NCBI GenBank assembly: GCA_958296285.1
Contig: OY282459.1
Coordinates: forward strand, 1,282,762 to 1,346,761
Origin: an uncultured Alphaproteobacteria bacterium
GTDB taxonomy: Bacteria > Pseudomonadota > Alphaproteobacteria > JAPOUT01 > G958296285
Length of the DNA: 64,000 nucleotides
Direction: 5' to 3'
Every line of letters begins with the position of its first letter. The first letter of the stretch is position 1. The notes below the pieces were generated by a model. It saw nothing but the letters and a program-made list of their open reading frames with translations. It did no database searches and was not told the origin of the DNA. A program made the translations under genes and the position numbers. Below are positions 8,232-61,200 of the stretch, in pieces.

Positions 8232-9772
8232 GCGCCCCTTTCCCTGACGCCTCCGCTTTCCGCGACATTCACAATGCAGGCAAGACGCAGATCGTTCGGC
8301 TGACGCTGCCTGCCGATTTGGAAACGCCTGTCGCCGCGATGATCAAATTGGCGGCGGGGAAGCGCGGCGCGTTCCTTTTTGAATCGGTGGAGGGCGGAGA
8401 GGCTCGCGGACGCTATTCCGTCATCGGCTTCGCGCCGGACGCCATTTGGCGATCTTACGGCGCGAGATGCGAGATCAATCGGCAGGCGGCGCGAGACCCT
8501 GACGCTTTTGAGATTTTGAAAGAGCCGCCTTTGGACGCGCTTCGCCGTTTCATCGCGGAGTCGCGTTTTGATCTGCCTGACGGTTTGCCGTCTTTGTCGG
8601 CGGGTTTGTTCGGCTATATGGGCTACGACATGGCGCGTCATGCCGAGCGTTTCGGGTCTCCGCCGCCTGACGCGATTGGCATTCCGGACAGCGTTTTCGC
8701 GCGTCCGTCTCGTCTTGTGGTTTTTGATTCGGTCAGCGACACGATGATTTGCATTGTTCGCTCGTCTCCGCGCCGGGGGCGCTCGGCTGACGAGGCTTAT
8801 GACGAAGCCTGTCGCGCTTTGCGCGAGATGCGGACGGCTTTGCAGAGGCCTCTGATGCCGAAGGAGCGCGGCGAGGATAGCCAGAGCGATGAAGGCGATG
8901 AAAGCGGCGGGGGCGGCGCGTCTTCGTCTGTTTCCATGCCGGTGCCGCGGTCCAACATGCAGCGCGCGCTTTATTTGGAGAAGGTTCGGCGCGTTAAGGA
9001 GTATATTTTCGCTGGCGACATTTTTCAGGCTGTTTTGAGTCAGCGTTTTTCGGCGTCTTTTTCGCTTTCGCCCATGACGCTGTATCGGTCTTTGCGGCGG
9101 ATAAATCCGTCTCCTTATCTTTATTATTTGGATTTTGGGGATTTTTCGGTTGTTGGCTCAAGTCCTGAGATTTTGGTTCGGCTGCGCGAGGGCGTGGTGA
9201 CGATTCGTCCGATTGCCGGGACTCGTCCGCGCGGGGGGTCGGCGGCGGATGATCTTCGCATTGGCGAGGAGTTGTTGTCGGATCCGAAGGAGCGCGCCGA
9301 GCATTTGATGTTGTTGGATTTGGGTCGGAATGATGTTGGGAGGGTATCGGAGATTGGTTCTGTTCGCGTGACGGAGCGTTTCGCGCTGCAGCGGACGTCT
9401 CATCTCATTCACATTGTTTCCAATGTTGAGGGTGTTTTGCGGCGCGGTTTGGAGGCTTTGGACGCTTTGATGGCGGGTTTTCCTGCTGGGACGGTTTCGG
9501 GCGCGCCGAAGATTCGGGCGATGGAGATTATTGATGAGTTGGAGGATGAGAAGCGGAGTTTATATGCGGGGGCGGTGGGGTATTTTTCGGCGAATGGGGA
9601 TATGGACAGTTGCATTGCCTTGCGGACGGCGTTGGTTAAGGATGGGGTGATGTATGTTCAGGCGGGGGGTGGGATTGTGGCGGATTCGGAGCCTGCTTAT
9701 GAGTATCGGGAGTCTGTGAAGAAGGCGGAGGTTTTGTTTCGGGCTGCTGAGGCTGTTGGAGGCTCCCGTTGA
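8228..9772 (+). CDS. trpE: anthranilate synthase component I
   Basis: LFESVEGGE, GDIFQAVLSQRF, PYLYYLDFGDF, GTVSGAPKIRAMEIIDELE. Start overlaps the ppiD stop. The last 4 codons and the stop lie inside the repeat element. Confidence 0.95.
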   Translation: MSAPFPDASAFRDIHNAGKTQIVRLTLPADLETPVAAMIKLAAGKRGAFLFESVEGGEARGRYSVIGFAPDAIWRSYGARCEINRQAARDPDAFEILKEPPLDALRRFIAESRFDLPDGLPSLSAGLFGYMGYDMARHAERFGSPPPDAIGIPDSVFARPSRLVVFDSVSDTMICIVRSSPRRGRSADEAYDEACRALREMRTALQRPLMPKERGEDSQSDEGDESGGGGASSSVSMPVPRSNMQRALYLEKVRRVKEYIFAGDIFQAVLSQRFSASFSLSPMTLYRSLRRINPSPYLYYLDFGDFSVVGSSPEILVRLREGVVTIRPIAGTRPRGGSAADDLRIGEELLSDPKERAEHLMLLDLGRNDVGRVSEIGSVRVTERFALQRTSHLIHIVSNVEGVLRRGLEALDALMAGFPAGTVSGAPKIRAMEIIDELEDEKRSLYAGAVGYFSANGDMDSCIALRTALVKDGVMYVQAGGGIVADSEPAYEYRESVKKAEVLFRAAEAVGGSR

Positions 9773-10066
9773 GGGGGGTTTGGGGGGGCGGCGAGCCGCC
9801 GCGGGCATCTTTTTCATAGAGAGGCATTTTGGCTTTACCCCAGGGGAACTAATGCATAGAAGCTTGAGGTGAAGGGGGGGTTGGGGGGCTTGCCCCCCAA
9901 GAAAAACCAAGCGGGCGCAAGCCCGCTACGGGCGGCGGGCTTCTCGCGCACTTGCGCTACGCGCTGCGTGCGCTTCGTTGCGCCACGCCCGCCGACCTTT
10001 TCGGGGGGGATTCCCCCCGACCCCCCCTTTCTCAAGGGGGGCTAGCCCCCCTTGACCCCCCTCAAG
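9758..10066. repeat. Mosaic G/C-tract palindromic intergenic element, copy A (modules Y, Z-prime, X)
   Basis: Y 9758-9879 matches the reverse complement of 17449-17562. X 9998-10066 matches 17395-17454 in direct orientation and contains a perfect G6-CTAG-C6 palindrome at 10036-10051. Z-prime 9909-9994 holds nested hairpins (agcgggc-gcaa-gcccgct; ggcgggc...gcccgcc). Confidence 0.9.
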
Positions 10067-16096: not shown

Positions 16097-16426
16097 CTAG
16101 GATGCTAATTTGAGAAGGATTGCGCCTGTCAGAGTGAAATTCGCTATCATGAAGGTGATGGTGACTCCGAACATCCATTTTAGCAGGCGCATGTCGGCTT
16201 GGACTTCTCCGAAGCGTTTTTCCATGTCTATTCTGAGTTCTCCGATCTGCGCGTTCATATCGGCGCGGAGTTCTCCGACCCGTTCTTCCACGTTCCGAAG
16301 CCGTTCTTCTATGTTCCGAAGCCGTTGCTCATCGCGGTTGGCTTCCAGCGCTTCTATAGCGGCGGTGGCTTTGTGATCGCTGACTTTCGCTTCTTTGAGG
16401 GCATCATAGACTGCGACGAGGCTCAT
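16097..16426 (-). CDS. coiled-coil membrane-anchored protein (DUF1640-like)
   Basis: 109 aa with heptad-like repeats (RLRNIEERLRNVEERVGELRADMNAQIGELRIDMEKRFGEVQADMR), then LKWMFGVTITFMIANFTLTGAILL as a C-terminal TM. GC lower than neighbours. Confidence 0.5.
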   Translation of the reverse strand: MSLVAVYDALKEAKVSDHKATAAIEALEANRDEQRLRNIEERLRNVEERVGELRADMNAQIGELRIDMEKRFGEVQADMRLLKWMFGVTITFMIANFTLTGAILLKLAS

Positions 16427-16496
16427 GGTTTATCTCCTTATGGTTGTGTTTTTGTAGCATTTTTGGTTCTTCTGCCGCAATCTTTAGAAGAAAGAA

Positions 16497-16657
16497 AAGG
16501 GGGGTGTGGGGGGTCGGAGACCCCCCGCGAAAAAGGGGGGATCGGGGGGATTCCCCCCCGAAAAGCGCGTGGGTGGGGTGGGGAAAAGAGCATTTGCGAG
16601 CGAAGCGTAAGCGTAGCGAGCAAATGCGACCCCACCCACGCGCCCCCTGCTCGCAGG
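16497..16657. repeat. Mosaic palindromic element, copy B (G/C-tract hairpins plus Z hairpin)
   Basis: 16543-16657 matches the reverse complement of 17289-17410. Z hairpin 16565-16643 has outer arms gcgcgtgggtgggg / ccccacccacgcgc and inner arms gcatttgc / gcaaatgc. Confidence 0.9.
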
Positions 16658-16672
16658 AGCTACTGATTCAGA

Positions 16673-17131
16673 TCAAAGATCGCCAAGCCTGCGCCGAAAC
16701 ACTTCATCAAACTTTTCTAATCTCTCCTTGAACCAAGCATATTGCGCGCATCTGTGGTTCATATTTTCCCAATCAGCTTCCTCTTCCCAGCTTTGGGTAA
16801 TAGATGGGAATCCCCATTGCAGTGGTGGAGGTGTGCCAATTTCCCTCTCAATGGCTTCTTTATCTGCATGCAGTTGGTTAAAACATTCCTTAGCGTAAAG
16901 CATGTCGGTGTCGGGGACAGGAAAACTTTTGCCATAGATAGAAAACCTAACAGCTACCTTGCGCGGCGGCGTCTTATAAAAACACGCCCATATGCGAAAG
17001 CCTGCTCTCCCCATAGAGAATCCTAGAGTGCTGCCAGACGACCGACAACGCCCGCGCCCAATATGTGAGTCAGACGCTCTGAGGCACTTAAGCAAACCTT
17101 GCCAATAGAGGCGGTGTTCTTCTTTAGACAT
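16673..17131 (-). CDS. hypothetical protein, DUF4268-like
   Basis: 152 aa, about 49% GC in a counted 100-nt window. Pattern LYWQGLL ... VRFSIYG ... FNQLHADKEAIEREIG..LQW ... W..FKERLEKF resembles DUF4268 from memory. No search was possible. Confidence 0.45.
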   Translation of the reverse strand: MSKEEHRLYWQGLLKCLRASDSHIGRGRCRSSGSTLGFSMGRAGFRIWACFYKTPPRKVAVRFSIYGKSFPVPDTDMLYAKECFNQLHADKEAIEREIGTPPPLQWGFPSITQSWEEEADWENMNHRCAQYAWFKERLEKFDEVFRRRLGDL

Positions 17132-17149
17132 TTGTCATTTCCGCAAAAA

Positions 17150-17236
17150 TGGTGCGGTCGAGAAGACTCGAACTTCCACGGGGTTGCCCCCACAGCGCCC
17201 TCAACGCTGCGCGTCTACCTATTCCGCCACGACCGC
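17150..17236 (-). tRNA. tRNA-Leu (anticodon GAG), CCA encoded
   Basis: Reverse complement GCGGTCGTGGCGGAATAGGTAGACGCGCAGCGTTGAGGGCGCTGTGGGGGCAACCCCGTGGAAGTTCGAGTCTTCTCGACCGCACCA. 7-bp acceptor stem, anticodon loop TTGAGGG, long variable arm, GTTCGAGTC T-loop. Confidence 0.9.
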
Positions 17237-17288
17237 ATCCAAAACACAATTAGCAGAAATTAACCAACCCCTCAACCTCGCTAGAAAT

Positions 17289-17562
17289 CTTGCGAACAGG
17301 GGGCGCGTGGGTGGGGTCGCATTTGCTCGCTCGCTACGCCACGAGTGGCTTCTCTTCGCTCGCAAATGCTTTTTTCCCCACCCCACCCACGCGCTTTCGG
17401 GGGGATTCCCCCGAACCCCCTTTCTCAAGGGGGGCTAGCCCCCCTTGACCCCCCTTCACCTCAAGCTTCTATGAATTAGTTCCCCCTGGGGCAAACCCAA
17501 AATGCCTCTCTATGAAAAAAATGCCCGCGGCGGCTCGCCGCCCCCCCTTAACGGGAGCCTCC
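17289..17562. repeat. Mosaic palindromic element, copy C (modules Z, X, Y in inverted order)
   Basis: Z 17303-17394, X 17395-17454 (G6-CTAG-C6 at 17429-17444), Y 17449-17562. Y overlaps the last 4 codons and the stop of cysH. Confidence 0.9.
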
Positions 17563-55421: not shown

Positions 55422-56180
55422 TCAGCCCTTCTCCACTTGATTGTATCCGAGCTCCACCGGCGTGGATCTGCCGAAAATGGAGACCGAAACTTTTAACCGC
55501 GAGCGCTCCACATCCACATCCTCCACAACGCCGTTGAAGGAGGCGAACGGCCCGTCCGAAACGCGAACCTGCTCGCCGATGGAGAAAATGACCGAAGGGC
55601 GGGGTCTGTCCACGCCCTGCCGCATCTGCCCCAAGATTCTATCCACCTCGCCCTGCGACAGAGGCTGCGGGGAATCGGCGTCCCCCAAAAAGCCCGTCAC
55701 GCGAGGCAGATTGCGTATGAAATGCTGCGTCTCTCCGTTCATCTCCATTTTTAGAAGCAGATAGCCAGGGAACAATTTGCGCTTGACCTCTTTATTTTGC
55801 CCGCGCCGCATCTCCAGCACTTCCTCCACAGGCACGAGCATTTCGTCAAAATACTCCGCCAAGCCTTGAGGAACCATGCGCTCCTTTATGGTGTCGCAGA
55901 CGCGCTGCTCAAAATTGGATTGCGTATGCACGATATACCACGCCTTCTTCTCGTCTTGATCTTCGCCGTCAGGCTTGTTGCCCGCAGGTTCGCCCGAGGG
56001 CTCGCCGCCGGCAGGCTTGCCGCCGGCAGGTTCGCCCGAGAGCTCGCCAGAGGGTTCGCCGCCGGCAGGTTCGCCGCCAGCAGGCTCGCCCGAGGGCTCG
56101 CCGCCGGCAGGCTCGCCCGAGAGCTCGCCGCCTGCGGCTTCGCTCGGCAGTTCTTTCTCAACCTTATCGCTGTCGGTCAT
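55422..56180 (-). CDS. nusG: transcription termination/antitermination factor NusG with about 75-aa repetitive N-terminal extension
   Basis: Core [17 protein letters not shown] ... FPGYLLLKM ... [24 protein letters not shown]. Start set to the ATG at 56180 ([10 protein letters not shown]). Confidence 0.9.
55980..56132 (-). repeat. In-frame tandem repeat array in the nusG 5' region (15-nt units, G-E-P-[AS]-G)
   Basis: Encodes [51 protein letters not shown]. The DNA shows nested repeats (tcgcccgagggctcgccgccggcagg twice). Confidence 0.85.
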
Positions 56181-56194
56181 GCTCTCTCTTCCCT

Positions 56195-56482
56195 TCAAGC
56201 GAAAACCCGCAGGATATAGCCCACCGCCGAAGACAGAATCTGATCCGCCAAGAAAAAAAACACCGCCGCCAAAAAAACCATGATGAAAACCATCACCGTC
56301 GTGACAACCGTCTCGCTCCGCGTGGGCCAAGTGACGCGCGCGGCTTCGGAGCGCACCTCGCGCAGAAAAATGAGCGGATTGCTCTTTTTCTTCGGCTCTT
56401 GAGGCGGCGGCGCGAGAGCCTCGCGCTCATCATGCCTCATAGAGGCGAGCCTCTTTTTCGCGGTTGATGCCATAGATTCCAT
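56195..56482 (-). CDS. secE: preprotein translocase subunit SecE
   Basis: FLREVRSEAARVTWPTRSETVVTTVMVFIMVFLAAVFFFLADQIL. Position is between tRNA-Trp and nusG. Confidence 0.9.
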   Translation of the reverse strand: MESMASTAKKRLASMRHDEREALAPPPQEPKKKSNPLIFLREVRSEAARVTWPTRSETVVTTVMVFIMVFLAAVFFFLADQILSSAVGYILRVFA

Positions 56483-58253: not shown

Positions 58254-61200
58254 TCAAAATGCTCCTGCAACGCCAAAACGAATGAAACGATCCGAAGAGC
58301 CTCTGATATGCCCCGCTTCCCTATGCCAGCCCGCCGAAATCTTCATAGAAACCCCATCCGACAACGGCTTGACATAAAGCGCCTCCAAGTGAATCGCCCG
58401 CCCGGAAGGTTTTAAAGACCCCTCTGCCCTCTGATCAATGAGAGACCCGTCTCGGCGGCGGGAAACGGCGTAATCCAAGGCGAAGCCGCCCTTCTCCACC
58501 CGCAAAGGCTGACGCGCGCGCAGGGCGATCCAATCTTCCTGCGAGAAAACGCCGCGCTTGCCCAAGCCCGCCGTGAAAGCGCTCATCACGATCGGGCCTT
58601 TTAACGACAAAAGCGAAACGCCGTCAATCTTCGGCGACATGAAGCCCGCCTCGGCGCTGATAAAGAGATGCCAGCCGCGCGCGAGCGCCTTCTCATGCGA
58701 GACGCCAAAAAACCAATTTTCTCGCGCGCCGTCCGCATGGAACGCGCCATCGCTCCAGCCCCCCAAAAGCCGATCTTCCTCGCGCAAAAGTCCGGCATGA
58801 AGATTCCAGCCCTCCCAAGCGAAATGCGCCAGCAAAGCGTATGAGGCTTTTTCTTCGCGGCTCGCGTCCCGCGCGTGATCCTGCCAGAGAGGCTTGCCTG
58901 AAAAAAGACCAAGATTCATAGAATAATCGCCGCCCTCCCAAGACAGCCCCGCGCCCACGCCATCGGCGATCAAAGAAAAATGCGCCGGAGACCTCTCGCG
59001 CCAAAGAGGCGACCGCGTCTCCGCCGCCATCAGAGCGGCGGGATGCTGAATGCCGAAAACCCGCGCCCCCAAAAGACGATAAGGCTCAACGCGGCGCTTC
59101 GCGCCGAGCGGTCTCAGAAAATCCCCCATCGCGTCAGGCGCGGCAAGGCTGAAATAACGACCAAGAGACGAATAAAAGGGCGCGCTCAACGCGTCAAACC
59201 GCGCGATGATCCTGCCCCGCAAAGCGCGGGCGAGACTGTCGCCGAGAGCCGGCGGCGCGACAAAGAAACTCTCCGCCGACAAAAAGGACGCTCTTGAGCC
59301 GCCCGCCCCCGCCGCCCCGCTCATGGAAGTCGCGCCGACAGGACGAGTCGCGGCGTCTATGTCTAAAAGCCCATGCCCGTAAATGTCGCTGTCGGCATAG
59401 ATGCCGGAACTGTCCGCCGTCTGCAGCAGACGCCATGCCAATTCCGGCGCGCCCATCGTGTCGCCGAAGGCTTCCATCAGGATCGCCAAAGCGCCCGCCA
59501 CATGCGGCGCGGCGAAAGAGGTGCCTTGCACAAGAACATCCGCGCGATCCGTGCCTTTCGCCGACACGCCTTCTCCGAAAGCGGCGAGACACCACTCCTT
59601 CGCATGACCGCATTTGTGATAGTTCGGAATAAGAGCCCCTGCCGTGTAGCGGGTTCTCGCTTCATTCAGAACCCTCCGCAGGGCGACAACGGCGAGGATC
59701 AGAGGCCTGTTCCTGTCCGCGCCGAGAAGATCGGGGAAATAGAAGGGCGTGTCGGAGAAGAGTCGGGGATGATCTTCATCCCAGCCGGGCCCTATAATCA
59801 TCCCTTCAGGGTTTCGAATATCCTCTGCGATATTCCCTGCGGAATAGACATAGACCGTCCTGTCCTCTTCGGGCGTATCATTTTGGCGGAAGACCTCATA
59901 ATAGTTGATGCTCGGGTTATTGATTCTTGCCTTTATCCTCGCTATCTCGCTTTCGGTGGCGGTCTCATAGTCGGCGATCACAATTTGCGTGATACCGTCA
60001 AAGAAGAGGATAGACTGGCTGACATTGACGATCTTCACATGATTTTGGAAATAGGCGAGACCGCTGGTGCTGGCCGTTGTTCCTGAATGGAGGAGAATCT
60101 TGGCGTTGAAAGCGATTCCATGAAAATCGGTGAGGCTGCCGCCGGCATCCCCCCTCTTCGCCGCGACAACGCCGCTCACGTGATTCCCATGCAGCAAAGT
60201 GATGCCGCTGTTCATGCCCACCAAGATTTCGCAATCTGTCGCGCTCGCGACCGTGCCGGCGGCAGGGCAATTCCTCACGCGGATCAGATCGGTATAAAGA
60301 CCATCGCTCGCCTGCGCATCGGTCAGAAGCGTCCGCCCTGCAGGAAGGCGGAATTGTTGGGCTGTGATCGTCGTTTCCATGGTGACGGGATCGGTGTTCG
60401 TTTCGCCTATCGCGCAATTGGTCGTTGTCGGCGTGGTGACGTCGGCGGGATTGAGCGCCGCGCCGGTGCAATTGTCCGCCGGCAGATAATATCTGTCCAC
60501 GCCCAACACTCCCCTGTCATGGGCGACGGTGAGCCTGCCGGCATAAGCGTTCACGAGAGAGGCGTCCCAGAGATGTCCCTCCAGCACGCCGACCGTCTGC
60601 CCCGCGCCGGTGAAGCCTCGCGCATAGGCTTCGGCGGCGCCGGACGCCTCAAAGCCGGGCTGCGTGCGATATTCCTGCGTCCTCCAAAAAACCGCCGAGC
60701 GAGAGAGCGTAGGCACGGTGATGCTCCAAACCTTCTGCGTGGCGTGTTTTGTCAGCGTGAAGCCGCCTAGAGTCGTGAGATCGCCCACGGTGAAGGTTCC
60801 CGTCCCGGTGAAAAGATTGATGACCGTCCCTGAGGCGGTGCTGGAGGGAAGGCTTACGCGGAGATTCCCCTTCAACGTCACATTCGCCGCGCCGAAATCA
60901 AGAAGCGCGGTCGCGCCTGACGGAAGGACGCGAATCTGAAAGGTCAGTTCGCCGCCGTCATTTTGCAAAAAAGTCTCCAAACCCTGAATCGCGAGCCTGC
61001 TGCCCATGATCCGAAGGTTCAGATCGCCGCTGTTGGTGAAACTGTCGCCCGTGCCGCCGCCGAAATTGGCATTGGCGGTCAGAGTCATGCGGGCGTCCGC
61101 CATATTGGTGACCGTGTCGCTGCCCGCGCCGAGGTCAAAGCCGCCGATGAAAGCGCCGTGATTGTTAAAAACATCCGCCGCGCCGCTCGCCGTGATGCTG

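What the first reader, a model, noticed from the sequence alone, without database searches (positions are those of the whole stretch)
16497..17562. Inverted copies of the Z hairpin bracket tRNA-Leu(GAG) and a low-GC ORF, like terminal inverted repeats around cargo
16543-16657 and 17289-17410 are reverse complements of each other (about 115 bp). They flank a 630-bp segment containing only the DUF4268-like ORF (16673-17131) and tRNA-Leu(GAG) (17150-17236).

This geometry is that of a non-autonomous TIR element or of a recombination product between two element copies. A presumably essential tRNA sits inside it.
Basis: seen in the sequence. Interest (0 to 1): 0.5.

Follow-up and report, generated by a model that had tools for sequence, protein, structure and literature searches.

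The report
Palindromic repeat pair flanking native tRNA
The inverted repeats are real, but they are two copies of a dispersed REP/BIME-like palindromic intergenic repeat on either side of a tRNA-Leu gene that has always been at this spot, next to a small slot where closely related strains carry different foreign genes; it is not a transposon carrying the tRNA.

Summary
Window 16497-16658 and 17288-17462 are inverted copies: the cores are 94-95% complementary, and each contains a 79-92 nt 'Z' hairpin. They bracket only a 152-aa DUF4268-like ORF (48% GC, against 59% for the window) and tRNA-Leu(GAG).

The transposon reading fails.
- Three distant relatives have cysH directly followed by tRNA-Leu(GAG), with no repeats and no ORF. 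The tRNA is native to this position.
- I found no target-site duplication, no duplicated tRNA end, and no recombinase gene among the ORFs annotated or scanned.

The arms belong to a modular intergenic repeat family. Its modules are a terminator module that also supplies a 'GGSR-stop' gene end, REP-like G6/C6 mini-hairpins, a long hairpin and a 16-nt tail. A third cluster lies between trpE and trpG.

The one close relative available (about 98.5% nucleotide identity) has the same bracket. Both of its arms carry a different hairpin type (Y), and the ORF is a different foreign gene: a 3'-truncated GST that is 88% identical to a gene from a low-GC organism. The strain difference starts exactly at the tRNA's CCA end.

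My best reading is two resident REP/BIME-like elements that evolve in concert and flank a tRNA-adjacent slot where foreign genes turn over. Interest is moderate. It is a new member of a known kind.

The parts
16497..16658 (+). mgtE-side repeat copy (E2), read head to tail on the + strand. It contains G-rich mini-hairpins at 16508-16526 and 16544-16559, the Z hairpin at 16565-16643, and the tail CCCCCTGCTCGCAGGA at 16644-16659. On the minus (sense) strand each hairpin is followed by a short T-run.
16673..17131 (-). Strain-specific cargo ORF of 152 aa. It is a divergent DUF4268 member at 48% GC and starts 18 nt after the tRNA's CCA end. The close relative L007 has a 3'-truncated GST gene in this position instead.
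   Evidence: L007 comparison
17150..17236 (-). tRNA-Leu(GAG), native to this position. It is identical in L007 and lies directly after cysH in L008, L009 and L132. The window and L007 stop being alignable exactly after its CCA end (17150).
17237..17287 (-). Conserved tRNA leader. It contains a candidate alphaproteobacterial sigma-70-type promoter, TTGAGGG (17275-17269) and GCTAATTG (17254-17247), which is my inference. The E. coli-type promoter scan did not detect it. The two motifs are conserved in L007, while 4 spacer bases between them differ.
   Evidence: the promoter reading is inference
17288..17462 (-). cysH-side repeat copy (E1), read head to tail on the minus strand. It contains the tail at 17288-17302, the Z hairpin at 17303-17394, and mini-hairpins at 17400-17412 and 17429-17444.
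17456..17562 (-). M1 module attached to E1. It supplies the last four codons and the stop of cysH (GGAGGCTCCCGTTAA, i.e. GGSR*, 17548-17562). It also carries a terminator-like hairpin GCGGCGAGCCGCCGC followed by GGGCATTTTT (17541-17527). It is 95% complementary over 65 nt to the M1 copy after trpE.
   Evidence: (I1, I2)
9758..10065 (+). Third cluster of the same repeat family, between trpE and trpG. Its order is GGSR*, M1, a mini-hairpin, a small hairpin, a Y-type long hairpin (9930-9996), then two more mini-hairpins. It shows that the family is dispersed and modular.
16097..16426 (-). Coiled-coil membrane protein gene (ccp, 109 aa). It is part of the lineage-specific DNA inserted between the tRNA and mgtE. 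It is absent in L008 and L009. L007 has two such genes where the window has a single fused one.

Best explanation
The two arms are resident copies of a lineage-specific, modular, palindromic intergenic repeat family of the REP/BIME type. One copy (E1) lies between cysH and the tRNA. The other (E2) lies downstream of the ORF. They sit tail to tail.

What they bracket is not a mobile unit. tRNA-Leu(GAG) is the ancestral neighbour of cysH. The ORF occupies a small hypervariable slot immediately 3' of the tRNA, where closely related strains hold different horizontally acquired DNA.

Steps that are shown:
- The family is dispersed and built from modules.
- The modules are gained and lost between strains that are about 98.5% identical.
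- The tRNA is native to this site.
- The cargo differs between strains.
- In the relative, the cargo is a promoterless, 3'-truncated gene fragment from a low-GC donor that has neither the repeats nor a tRNA next to its own copy.

Steps that are inferred:
- The cargo entered by illegitimate or homology-facilitated illegitimate recombination at a fragile or recombination-prone site, not by a dedicated recombinase.
- The arms stay matched within each genome (Z/Z here, Y/Y in the relative) through gene conversion between the inverted copies, or through replacement of the whole block by homologous recombination in the conserved flanks.
- In the cell the elements act as hairpin terminators or 3'-end stabilisers. 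M1 would terminate cysH. The Z hairpin plus TTTT and the two mini-hairpins plus T-runs would terminate the tRNA-ORF unit. E1's hairpins face the opposite way and would stop antisense transcripts.
For: The family is dispersed and modular.
- G6-N(2-8)-C6 mini-hairpins occur 7 times in the window against 0.02 expected, all in three intergenic regions.
- M1 after trpE and M1 after cysH are 95% complementary over 65 nt.
- Seven long hairpins from the window and L007 align as one family with a shared core (CGAAGCG...GTAGCGAGCGAG) and tail. Their outer stems differ but remain self-complementary.

Tail-to-tail pairing is a property of the family itself.
- In L007's trpE-trpG spacer, two hairpins (Z2 and Y) abut directly at CCCCTGCTACAAGAG|CTCTTGCGAGGCAGGGG with nothing between them.

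Modules come and go between near-identical genomes.
- The M1 body (about 104 nt) is present in the window's trpE-trpG spacer and absent from L007's.
- Z2 plus its tails is present in L007 and absent from the window.

The tRNA is native.
- L008 and L009 (cysH 66% and 62% identical) have cysH - tRNA-Leu(GAG) - mgtE with plain spacers and no ORF between the tRNA and mgtE.
- L132 also has cysH followed by tRNA-Leu(GAG).

The slot is variable.
- L007 matches the window at 95-99% on both flanks.
- It diverges only across window 16533-17512.
- The break falls exactly after the tRNA's CCA, and similarity resumes at the shared tail TAGYTCCTGCGAGCAGGGGG.

The cargo is foreign.
- The window ORF is 48% GC, and its best non-self homologue is 40% identical.
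- The L007 GST is 46% GC and 88% identical over 677 nt to the GST in L131, a 48% GC contig with no tRNA and none of these repeat modules visible next to that gene.
- That match ends about 35 nt before L007's stop codon.

The arms evolve in concert.
- Within a genome the two arms are 81% (window) and 90% (L007) identical.
- The copies at the same position in the two genomes are only 63-64% identical.

Terminator-like features are present.
- The M1 hairpin followed by a T-run sits directly after the cysH stop.

There is a link to REPs.
- The mini-hairpin core equals the Pseudomonas fluorescens GI REP palindrome GGGGGCTTGCCCCC (PMC2817692, PMC3116915).

A known framework covers such sites.
- Dimorphic variable segments and homology-assisted illegitimate recombination are described in PMC2884548.
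Against: - Why both arms switched type together (Z/Z against Y/Y) is not explained by direct evidence. Only two genomes of this lineage could be retrieved.
- Both cargoes share the same two boundaries to within a few bases, the CCA end and the tail. This could instead point to a site-specific process.
- No RAYT or other enzyme that could move the repeats could be looked for, because the rest of the source genome was not retrievable. Membership of the REP family proper is therefore unproven.
- The T-runs after the hairpins are short, and the terminator role is untested.
- The E. coli-type scan found no promoter in the tRNA leader.
Confidence: 0.7

Rival explanations
1. One reading: [Z arm - tRNA-Leu - ORF - Z arm] is a non-autonomous TIR element or composite transposon that carries the tRNA and ORF as cargo and is moved by a transposase encoded elsewhere.
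For: - The geometry fits: inverted arms of about 115-165 nt surround 630 bp.
- The ORF is low in GC.
- A 10-nt direct repeat, GGGATTCCCC, lies just outside CCCGAAAA-Z...Z-TTTCGGG.
Against: - The tRNA is at its ancestral position and orientation in three outgroups that lack the arms and the ORF.
- The 10-nt 'duplication' is part of the palindromic mini-hairpin, a module that also sits next to the Y hairpin at 10003-10018.
- L007 has no equivalent direct repeat visible around its pair.
- The points where the two strains diverge do not coincide with the outer ends of the arms.
- No transposase was found within 10 kb either side or among the window ORFs scanned.
- The Z stem was not found in any related form in 185,579 species-representative genomes.
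Confidence: 0.04
2. A cassette-capture site: the hairpin plus tail acts as a recombination site, used for example by a RAYT-type or other single-strand-hairpin recombinase, or in an integron-like manner. Single genes would be inserted or exchanged precisely between the tRNA end and the tail, and the matched arms would be a footprint of that reaction.
For: - Two strains carry different single-gene cargoes with the same boundaries, the CCA end and TAGYTCCTGCGAGCAGGGGG.
- The arms match within each genome but differ between genomes.
- The hairpins keep their structure while their sequence varies.
- Modules are polymorphic between strains.
Against: - No recombinase gene lies nearby.
- The GST cargo is a 3'-truncated fragment, and its closest relative (L131) has no hairpin, tail or tRNA beside it. 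The cargo therefore did not arrive with its own recombination site.
- The arms are inverted rather than direct, unlike the products of ordinary site-specific integration.
- I saw no GTTRRRY-type core in the arm sequences (my reading).
- There is only one such locus in the 64 kb available.
Confidence: 0.1
3. An invertible segment or recombination product: the inverted arms mediate flipping of the tRNA-ORF segment, or the arrangement is the scar of an inversion between two element copies.
For: Inverted repeats of 100-230 nt spaced 0.6-0.9 kb apart are adequate substrates for RecA-dependent inversion. That is established knowledge; the geometry comes.
Against: - The tRNA has the same orientation relative to cysH in the window, L007, L008, L009 and L132.
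- The conserved leader lies upstream of the tRNA in both close genomes.
- An inverted state was never observed.
Confidence: 0.04
4. Long-range RNA processing stem: on a read-through transcript, E1 and E2 pair with each other, as the stems flanking 16S and 23S rRNA do, and the resulting duplex is cut to release the tRNA and the ORF mRNA.
For: - E1 and E2 would be complementary on one transcript, because all the genes here share one strand.
- Matched arms are kept in both genomes.
Against: - Each arm folds strongly on itself, at -35 to -44 kcal/mol, so local folding should win.
- A terminator-like M1 hairpin lies upstream of E1.
- The conserved tRNA leader, with its candidate promoter, lies inside the bracket, so E1 would not be on the tRNA's primary transcript.
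Confidence: 0.03

Closest known systems
REP sequences and BIMEs (bacterial interspersed mosaic elements) of Enterobacteria and Pseudomonas
   Same: - They are extragenic, GC-rich, imperfect palindromes combined with other short motifs into mosaic clusters, with units in alternating orientation (abstract of PMC2817692).
- They sit at the 3' ends of genes.
- The mini-hairpin core here equals the P. fluorescens GI REP palindrome GGGGGCTTGCCCCC.
   Different: - The long hairpins (79-92 nt) are much larger than a 20-40 nt REP.
- The conserved GTAG/GTGG head is not clearly present.
- The M1 module, which supplies a stop codon and a terminator, has no BIME counterpart that I know of.
- Copy number and association with a RAYT gene are unknown.
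REPINs, mobilised by RAYT transposases
   Same: - Two palindromic units sit in inverted orientation as a doublet, roughly 100 nt in hairpin-forming size (PMC3337134, PMC3116915).
- Presence and absence vary between close strains.
   Different: - A REPIN's two REPs are separated by a short spacer, not by a tRNA and a gene.
- No RAYT gene could be searched for.
- The doublet in L007's trpE-trpG spacer is made of two different hairpin types (Z2 with Y).
RIMEs (Rhizobium-specific intergenic mosaic elements). From my own knowledge (Osteras et al. 1995); not checked with the tools.
   Same: They are alphaproteobacterial intergenic mosaics built from large palindromes plus several short motifs.
   Different: No sequence similarity was found. 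A distant-mode search of 72,556 plasmids returned nothing, and Rfam gave only the tRNA plus three weak matches well below their gathering scores.
MITEs and TIR-bounded non-autonomous transposons
   Same: Inverted arms surround a short segment, and elements are present or absent between strains.
   Different: - There is no credible target-site duplication.
- The bracketed tRNA is ancestral to the site.
- The arms are themselves composite palindromes shared with stand-alone copies elsewhere.
tRNA-adjacent genomic islets and dimorphic variable segments generated by homology-facilitated illegitimate recombination
   Same: - Exactly two alternative segments occupy one site in close strains.
- The boundary lies at the 3' end of a tRNA.
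- The inserted DNA has foreign base composition (PMC2884548).
   Different: - There is no integrase and no duplicated tRNA 3' fragment.
- The slot holds a single gene or gene fragment of only 0.5-0.7 kb.
- The slot is bracketed by matched inverted repeats.
Integron gene cassettes with attC sites
   Same: A single promoterless ORF is followed by an imperfect palindrome whose sequence varies while its structure is kept.
   Different: - There is no intI, attI or Pc nearby.
- I saw no R/L core boxes in the arm sequences.
- The hairpins lie on both sides in inverted orientation.
- The cargo's nearest relative has no such site next to it.

Membership tests
REP / BIME | Short (about 20-40 nt) imperfect palindromes located outside genes | tested here: met
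   G6-N(2-8)-C6 mini-hairpins occur 7 times, against 0.02 expected. All lie in three intergenic regions.
REP / BIME | Mosaic clusters that combine palindromes in alternating orientation with other conserved motifs | tested here: met
   Clusters at 9758-10065, 16497-16658 and 17288-17562 share their modules. A tail-to-tail doublet lies in L007's trpE-trpG spacer.
REP / BIME | Conserved 5' GTAG/GTGG head next to the palindrome | tested here: inconclusive
   The mini-hairpins are preceded by GGTGAAGGGGGG, and the Z stem begins GCGCGTGGGTGGGG. This resembles, but does not match, the listed REP heads such as GTGGGAGGGGGCTTGCCCCCGAT.
REP / BIME | High copy number across the genome (often more than 100) | not testable with these tools
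   Only 64 kb of the source genome plus 20 kb of L007 could be read. The source contig (1,733,000 bp) could not be retrieved.
REPIN / RAYT system | A RAYT (Y1/HUH transposase) gene in the genome, typically flanked by its own REPs | not testable with these tools
   No transposase domain was found among the window ORFs scanned or in the L007 gene list. The rest of the genome is unavailable. A crude motif screen near the metagenomic mini-hairpins found no RAYT-like ORF.
MITE / TIR transposon | Target-site duplication directly flanking the terminal inverted repeats | tested here: not met
   The only flanking direct repeat (GGGATTCCCC, 6-10 nt depending on the boundary chosen) is part of the family's own palindromic mini-hairpin. 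The same module sits next to the Y hairpin at 10003-10018.
MITE / TIR transposon | The whole unit is present or absent as a block relative to an empty site | tested here: not met
   Outgroups lack the arms and the ORF but keep the tRNA in place. The strain-to-strain breakpoints lie at the tRNA's CCA end and inside the modules.
Integrase-mediated tRNA-linked island | Integrase gene and a direct repeat of the tRNA 3' end at the far border | tested here: not met
   The window holds no second copy of the last 13 or 24 nt of the tRNA. No integrase lies within 10 kb either side.
Integron cassette / attC | intI and attI nearby; attC with R''/L''/L'/R' boxes (GTTRRRY core) | tested here: not met
   No integrase was found. 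I saw no GTTRRRY core in the tail or hairpin flanks (reading). The arms are inverted.
DUF4268 (the cargo ORF) | Pfam PF14088 match above the gathering score | tested here: met
   32.1 bits against a cut-off of 27, E 1.3e-7, covering residues 74-148. Full-length but weak homologues exist at 35-46% identity.

The most novel reading that the evidence does not exclude
The matched inverted pair of REP-like mosaic elements is not a bystander. It would create and maintain a miniature gene-capture slot at the 3' end of a tRNA. The two palindromic arms, through hairpin or cruciform fragility or through a hairpin-specific recombinase encoded elsewhere, would promote repeated replacement of a single promoterless gene or gene fragment from unrelated donors. 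They would also be homogenised together. That would explain why two genomes about 98.5% identical carry Z/Z with DUF4268 and Y/Y with a GST fragment, sharing the same two boundaries.
Probability: 0.12. Interest if true: 0.65.

Novelty: new member of a known kind. Interest (0 to 1): 0.35.

Why it matters
This removes a tempting but wrong reading, that a presumably essential tRNA rides on a transposon. It also documents a previously undescribed REP/BIME-like mosaic repeat family in an uncultured, small-genome (about 1.7 Mb) bacterium that is probably an alphaproteobacterium.

The family has three features worth knowing.
- One module rewrites the 3' ends of two housekeeping genes, giving both the same GGSR-stop and a terminator.
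- Modules are gained and lost between genomes about 98.5% identical.
- A matched inverted pair brackets a tRNA-adjacent slot whose single-gene content has turned over by horizontal transfer.

If the pair proves to be causally involved in that turnover, it would link REP-like palindromes to the acquisition of foreign genes. For annotation, it warns that inverted repeats around a tRNA in repeat-rich genomes need a synteny check before being called mobile elements.

Tried and rejected
- **Genome-collection scan for the Z stem**. It returned six loci, and the three I read (L001-L003) are unrelated palindromes, from Stenotrophomonas, a Solirubrobacterales MAG and a Pseudomonadota MAG. The source genome is not in that collection, so no copy census was possible.
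- **Exact look-ups of window proteins** (cysH, the ORF, ccp, P0121, P0130). All failed, so the source contig is not retrievable.
- **Metagenome scan with the mini-hairpin motif**. It gave at least 120 hits, but they share only the 25-33 nt motif and none of the M1, long-hairpin or tail modules. It was useless for finding more alleles of this locus.
- **Viral-contig scans** for M1 and for the hairpin core: 0 hits each.
- **Plasmid search in distant mode**: no match.
- **Rfam**: only the tRNA was significant. The 'Clostridiales-2' hits at 23 and 19.9 bits are far below the 58.6-bit gathering score and I dismissed them.
- **RNAalifold on the seven hairpins**. It gave a poor consensus because the stems differ too much to align in register, so I did not use it as covariation evidence.
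- **The idea that the cargo arrived anchored on a donor tRNA-Leu gene.** The closest GST relative (L131) has no tRNA on its 12.8-kb locus, so this is not supported.
- **Crude screen for RAYT-like ORFs near the metagenomic motif sites**: none found.
- **Integron, integrase-island and RNA-processing-stem readings.** I considered and rejected these for the reasons given under the rival explanations.
Full report
**1. The observation**

The repeat finder reports inverted arms at 16555-16605 / 17354-17404 (51 nt, 94% complementary) and 16615-16658 / 17288-17331 (44 nt, 95%), with 629 nt between the inner arms. The two blocks are one repeat, interrupted by a 13-nt indel in a hairpin loop.

Aligning 16490-16672 against the reverse complement of 17270-17470 extends the similarity outwards through two G-rich mini-hairpins. 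The repeat then spans about 16497-16658 versus 17288-17462, at 83% mean column identity over 208 columns.

Its 15-bp outer stem is perfect: GCGCGTGGGTGGGGT / ACCCCACCCACGCGC (I4 and I5). The folding energies are -43.6 and -35.3 kcal/mol, with z-scores of -7.7 and -5.1. The stem 15-mer occurs four times in the window, all in these two hairpins, against 0.2 expected.

Between the arms lie only two features. One is tRNA-Leu(GAG) at 17150-17236 on the minus strand. The other is the 152-aa ORF at 16673-17131 on the minus strand, which matches DUF4268 at 32.1 bits against a cut-off of 27. The ORF is 48.4% GC against 59.0% for the window.

Because each arm is a palindrome, I checked that the inverted orientation is real. 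The asymmetric parts mirror each other: the mini-hairpin head and GAAAA lie outside, and the tail CCCCCTGYTCGCARGA lies inside.

**2. The arms belong to a dispersed, modular repeat family**

G6-N(2-8)-C6 mini-hairpins occur seven times in the window against 0.02 expected. All lie in three intergenic regions: trpE-trpG (9883-10051) and the two arms.

The trpE-trpG spacer (9758-10065) has the same building plan. In order, it contains:
- a roughly 105-nt module I call M1;
- a mini-hairpin;
- a small hairpin;
- a long hairpin of a different type, 'Y', with stem GGCGGCGGGC / GCCCGCCGAC;
- two more mini-hairpins.

M1 after trpE and M1 after cysH are 95% complementary over 65 nt (I1).

Seven long hairpins from the window and from the relative L007 align as one family. 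They share a core (CGAAGCG...GTAGCGAGCGAG) and a tail, while their outer stems differ and yet remain self-complementary.

No known family matches. Rfam reports only the tRNA above its gathering score, a distant-mode search of plasmids finds nothing, and viral contigs give no hits.

**3. Relatives**

The source genome is a 1,733,000-bp contig that I could not retrieve. Only one close relative is on record. It is L007, from a 1.72-Mb contig, with cysH 98% identical at the protein level. Its flanks are 95-99% identical to the window at the nucleotide level. The only strongly divergent block in the cysH-mgtE region spans window 16533-17512.

L007 has the same bracket, in this order:
- cysH;
- repeat;
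- tRNA-Leu(GAG);
- an ORF;
- inverted repeat;
- ccp;
- mgtE.

Its inverted arms are 77 nt at 97% and 68 nt at 94% complementary. However, both arms carry a Y-type hairpin instead of Z, and the ORF is a 224-aa glutathione S-transferase instead of DUF4268.

On the cysH side the two genomes are identical through M1 and the first mini-hairpin. They then differ through the linker, the hairpin stems and the tail. They are near-identical again through the 50-nt leader and identical through the tRNA to its CCA end. The break is exactly after CCA. On the mgtE side both share TAGYTCCTGCGAGCAGGGGG right after the cargo, then differ until window 16539.

**4. The ancestral state**

Three more distant relatives keep tRNA-Leu(GAG) directly downstream of cysH in the same orientation.
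- L008 (cysH 66% identical) and L009 (62%) have cysH - tRNA - mgtE. Their spacers are plain, with no repeats, no ORF and no ccp gene.
- L132 (66%) has cysH - tRNA followed by a different neighbour and a 3 x 65-nt tandem repeat.

The tRNA is therefore native to this position. The repeats, the cargo ORF and ccp are additions specific to this lineage.

**5. Other tests of mobility**

- The window has no second copy of the tRNA's last 13 or 24 nt, so there is no att-type repeat.
- No integrase or transposase appears in the L007 gene list within 10 kb either side, nor among the 17 window ORFs I scanned.
- A systematic search for direct repeats flanking any plausible pair of arm ends found only GGGATTCCCC. 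That sequence is part of the palindromic mini-hairpin itself, with its 3-nt loop in the same orientation on both sides (D3). The same module sits next to the Y hairpin in the trpE-trpG spacer.

**6. Tail-to-tail pairs and module turnover are properties of the family**

In L007's trpE-trpG spacer, two long hairpins of different types (Z2 and Y) abut tail to tail...CCCCTGCTACAAGAG|CTCTTGCGAGGCAGGGG.... Nothing lies between them.

Comparing that spacer between the two genomes shows two differences.
- The M1 body (about 104 nt) is present only in the window. It is flanked by the direct repeats GGGGGGTTTGGGGGG and GGGGGGGTTGGGGGG.
- Z2 plus two tails (about 125 nt) is present only in L007.

Modules are therefore gained or lost independently on the timescale that separates genomes about 98.5% identical.

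**7. The cargo**

The window ORF is a divergent but full-length DUF4268 protein. An exhaustive HMMER search found only nine hits. The best hit other than the ORF itself is 40% identical (E 1.3e-8) and aligns over residues 6-151.

The GST in L007 belongs to a widespread, highly conserved family. At the nucleotide level it is 88% identical over 677 nt to the GST in L131. L131 is a 48% GC contig from a sibling sample, with no tRNA on the locus and none of these repeat modules visible next to the gene. The match starts 13 nt after L007's tRNA CCA end and stops about 35 nt before L007's stop codon. L007 therefore holds a promoterless, 3'-truncated fragment with a new C-terminus.

The repeats did not arrive with this cargo. 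That pattern fits illegitimate or homology-assisted illegitimate recombination at a dimorphic site (framework in PMC2884548). It does not fit a cassette carrying its own recombination site.

**8. Concerted arms**

The two arms within a genome are 81% (window) and 90% (L007) identical. The arms at the same position in the two genomes are only 63-64% identical. By contrast, the Y hairpins at the same position in the trpE-trpG spacers of the two genomes are 82% identical.

So both arms changed type together. Two routes could produce this:
- gene conversion between inverted copies 0.6-0.9 kb apart;
- replacement of the whole block by homologous recombination in the conserved flanks.

With only two genomes I cannot choose between them. 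This remains the least explained feature.

**9. Likely function (inferred)**

M1 begins with the last four codons and the stop of the upstream gene. The 15 nt GGAGGCTCCCGTTRA (GGSR*) are identical at the ends of trpE and cysH. A terminator-like hairpin with a T-run follows immediately. In the outgroups the C-terminal tails of both proteins are different and longer.

On the sense strand, E2 presents the Z hairpin followed by TTTT, then two mini-hairpins followed by T-rich runs. That would end the tRNA-ORF transcript. E1 faces the other way and would act on antisense transcripts.

A conserved TTGAGGG-N14-GCTAATTG sits in the leader. From my own knowledge it resembles the alphaproteobacterial sigma-70 consensus. 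The E. coli-type scan did not detect it, so I treat it as an inference.

**10. Relation to known systems**

The mini-hairpin core is the same palindrome as the Pseudomonas fluorescens GI REP, GGGGGCTTGCCCCC (PMC3116915, PMC2817692). REPs form BIMEs in alternating orientation, and REPINs are inverted REP doublets (PMC2817692, PMC3337134).

The motif GGGGGG-N(3-4)-GGGGGGCTWGCCCCCC occurs in at least 120 very diverse metagenome contigs. The word GAGCGNAGCGA, which also forms the core of the long hairpins here, lies within 80 nt of 9 of 131 such sites, against about 0.7 expected.

The element therefore works like a REP/BIME-type mosaic. Membership of the RAYT-REP system proper could not be tested, because genome-wide copy number and the presence of a RAYT gene are both unknown.

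**11. Verdict**

- The TIR-transposon interpretation is not supported. The idea of 'two element copies' and the idea that the ORF is foreign cargo are both supported.
- The best explanation (confidence about 0.7) is two resident REP/BIME-like mosaic elements flanking the native tRNA-Leu(GAG) and a tRNA-adjacent slot where foreign genes turn over.
- The most novel reading not excluded (about 0.12) is that the matched palindromic pair itself drives the gene capture.
- I rate it a new member of a known kind, with interest 0.35.

Noticed in passing
window 9758-9810 and 17525-17562: The M1 repeat module gives trpE and cysH the same last 15 nt (GGAGGCTCCCGTTRA, i.e. GGSR-stop), followed by the same terminator-like hairpin GCGGCGAGCCGCCGC plus a T-run. 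In the outgroups the C-terminal tails of both proteins are different and longer. The repeat appears to have replaced the extreme 3' ends of two housekeeping genes.
   Followed up: partly
window 9773-9900 vs L007 19040-19090; L007 18925-19020: The trpE-trpG spacer differs between the two genomes by whole modules. The M1 body (about 104 nt, flanked by GGGGGGKTTGGGGGG direct repeats) is found only in the window. A Z2 hairpin plus a tail-to-tail junction (about 125 nt) is found only in L007.
   Followed up: partly
window 16097-16426; L007 12234-12751: The coiled-coil membrane protein gene next to the repeat is a single 109-aa gene in the window. L007 has a 110-aa gene plus a 61-aa gene that share a 77-nt repeat, so the window copy looks like a deletion fusion. 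The gene also contains a 21-nt tandem duplication (16280-16321). It is absent from outgroups L008 and L009.
   Followed up: partly
metagenome loci L010-L129: The motif GGGGGG-N3-4-GGGGGGCTWGCCCCCC occurs in at least 120 very diverse metagenome contigs, and the bases flanking the hairpin are often complementary to each other. Several contigs carry 2-3 copies. The word GAGCGNAGCGA lies within 80 nt at 9 of 131 sites, against about 0.7 expected. The palindromic core equals the P. fluorescens GI REP.
   Followed up: partly
window 16542-16557 and 17397-17412: The mini-hairpin next to each Z hairpin is an exact 16-nt DIRECT repeat (TCGGGGGGATTCCCCC), although its surroundings are inverted. The 3-nt loop is therefore 'flipped' in one copy relative to the arm. 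This mimics a target-site duplication.
   Followed up: yes
L131 6057-6733 vs L007 11154-11830: The GST fragment in L007 is 88% identical at the DNA level to a GST in a 48% GC contig from a sibling sample (ERZ19488966). This suggests recent transfer between co-occurring organisms.
   Followed up: partly
L132 2435-2629: In the outgroup L132, the tRNA-Leu(GAG) after cysH is followed by three tandem copies of a 65-nt unit and by a different downstream gene. The 3' flank of this tRNA is rearranged in other lineages too.
   Followed up: no
window 55422-56330 (-), repeats 55964-56144: The nusG ORF has an N-terminal extension made of ([10 protein letters not shown])n repeats, encoded by 12/15/27-nt tandem repeats. 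The NusG domain itself starts only at about residue 129.
   Followed up: no
window 58254-63992 (-): A 1912-aa ORF with a subtilase (Peptidase_S8) domain and internal repeats of about 590-600 nt. It reaches to within 8 nt of the window's right edge.
   Followed up: no
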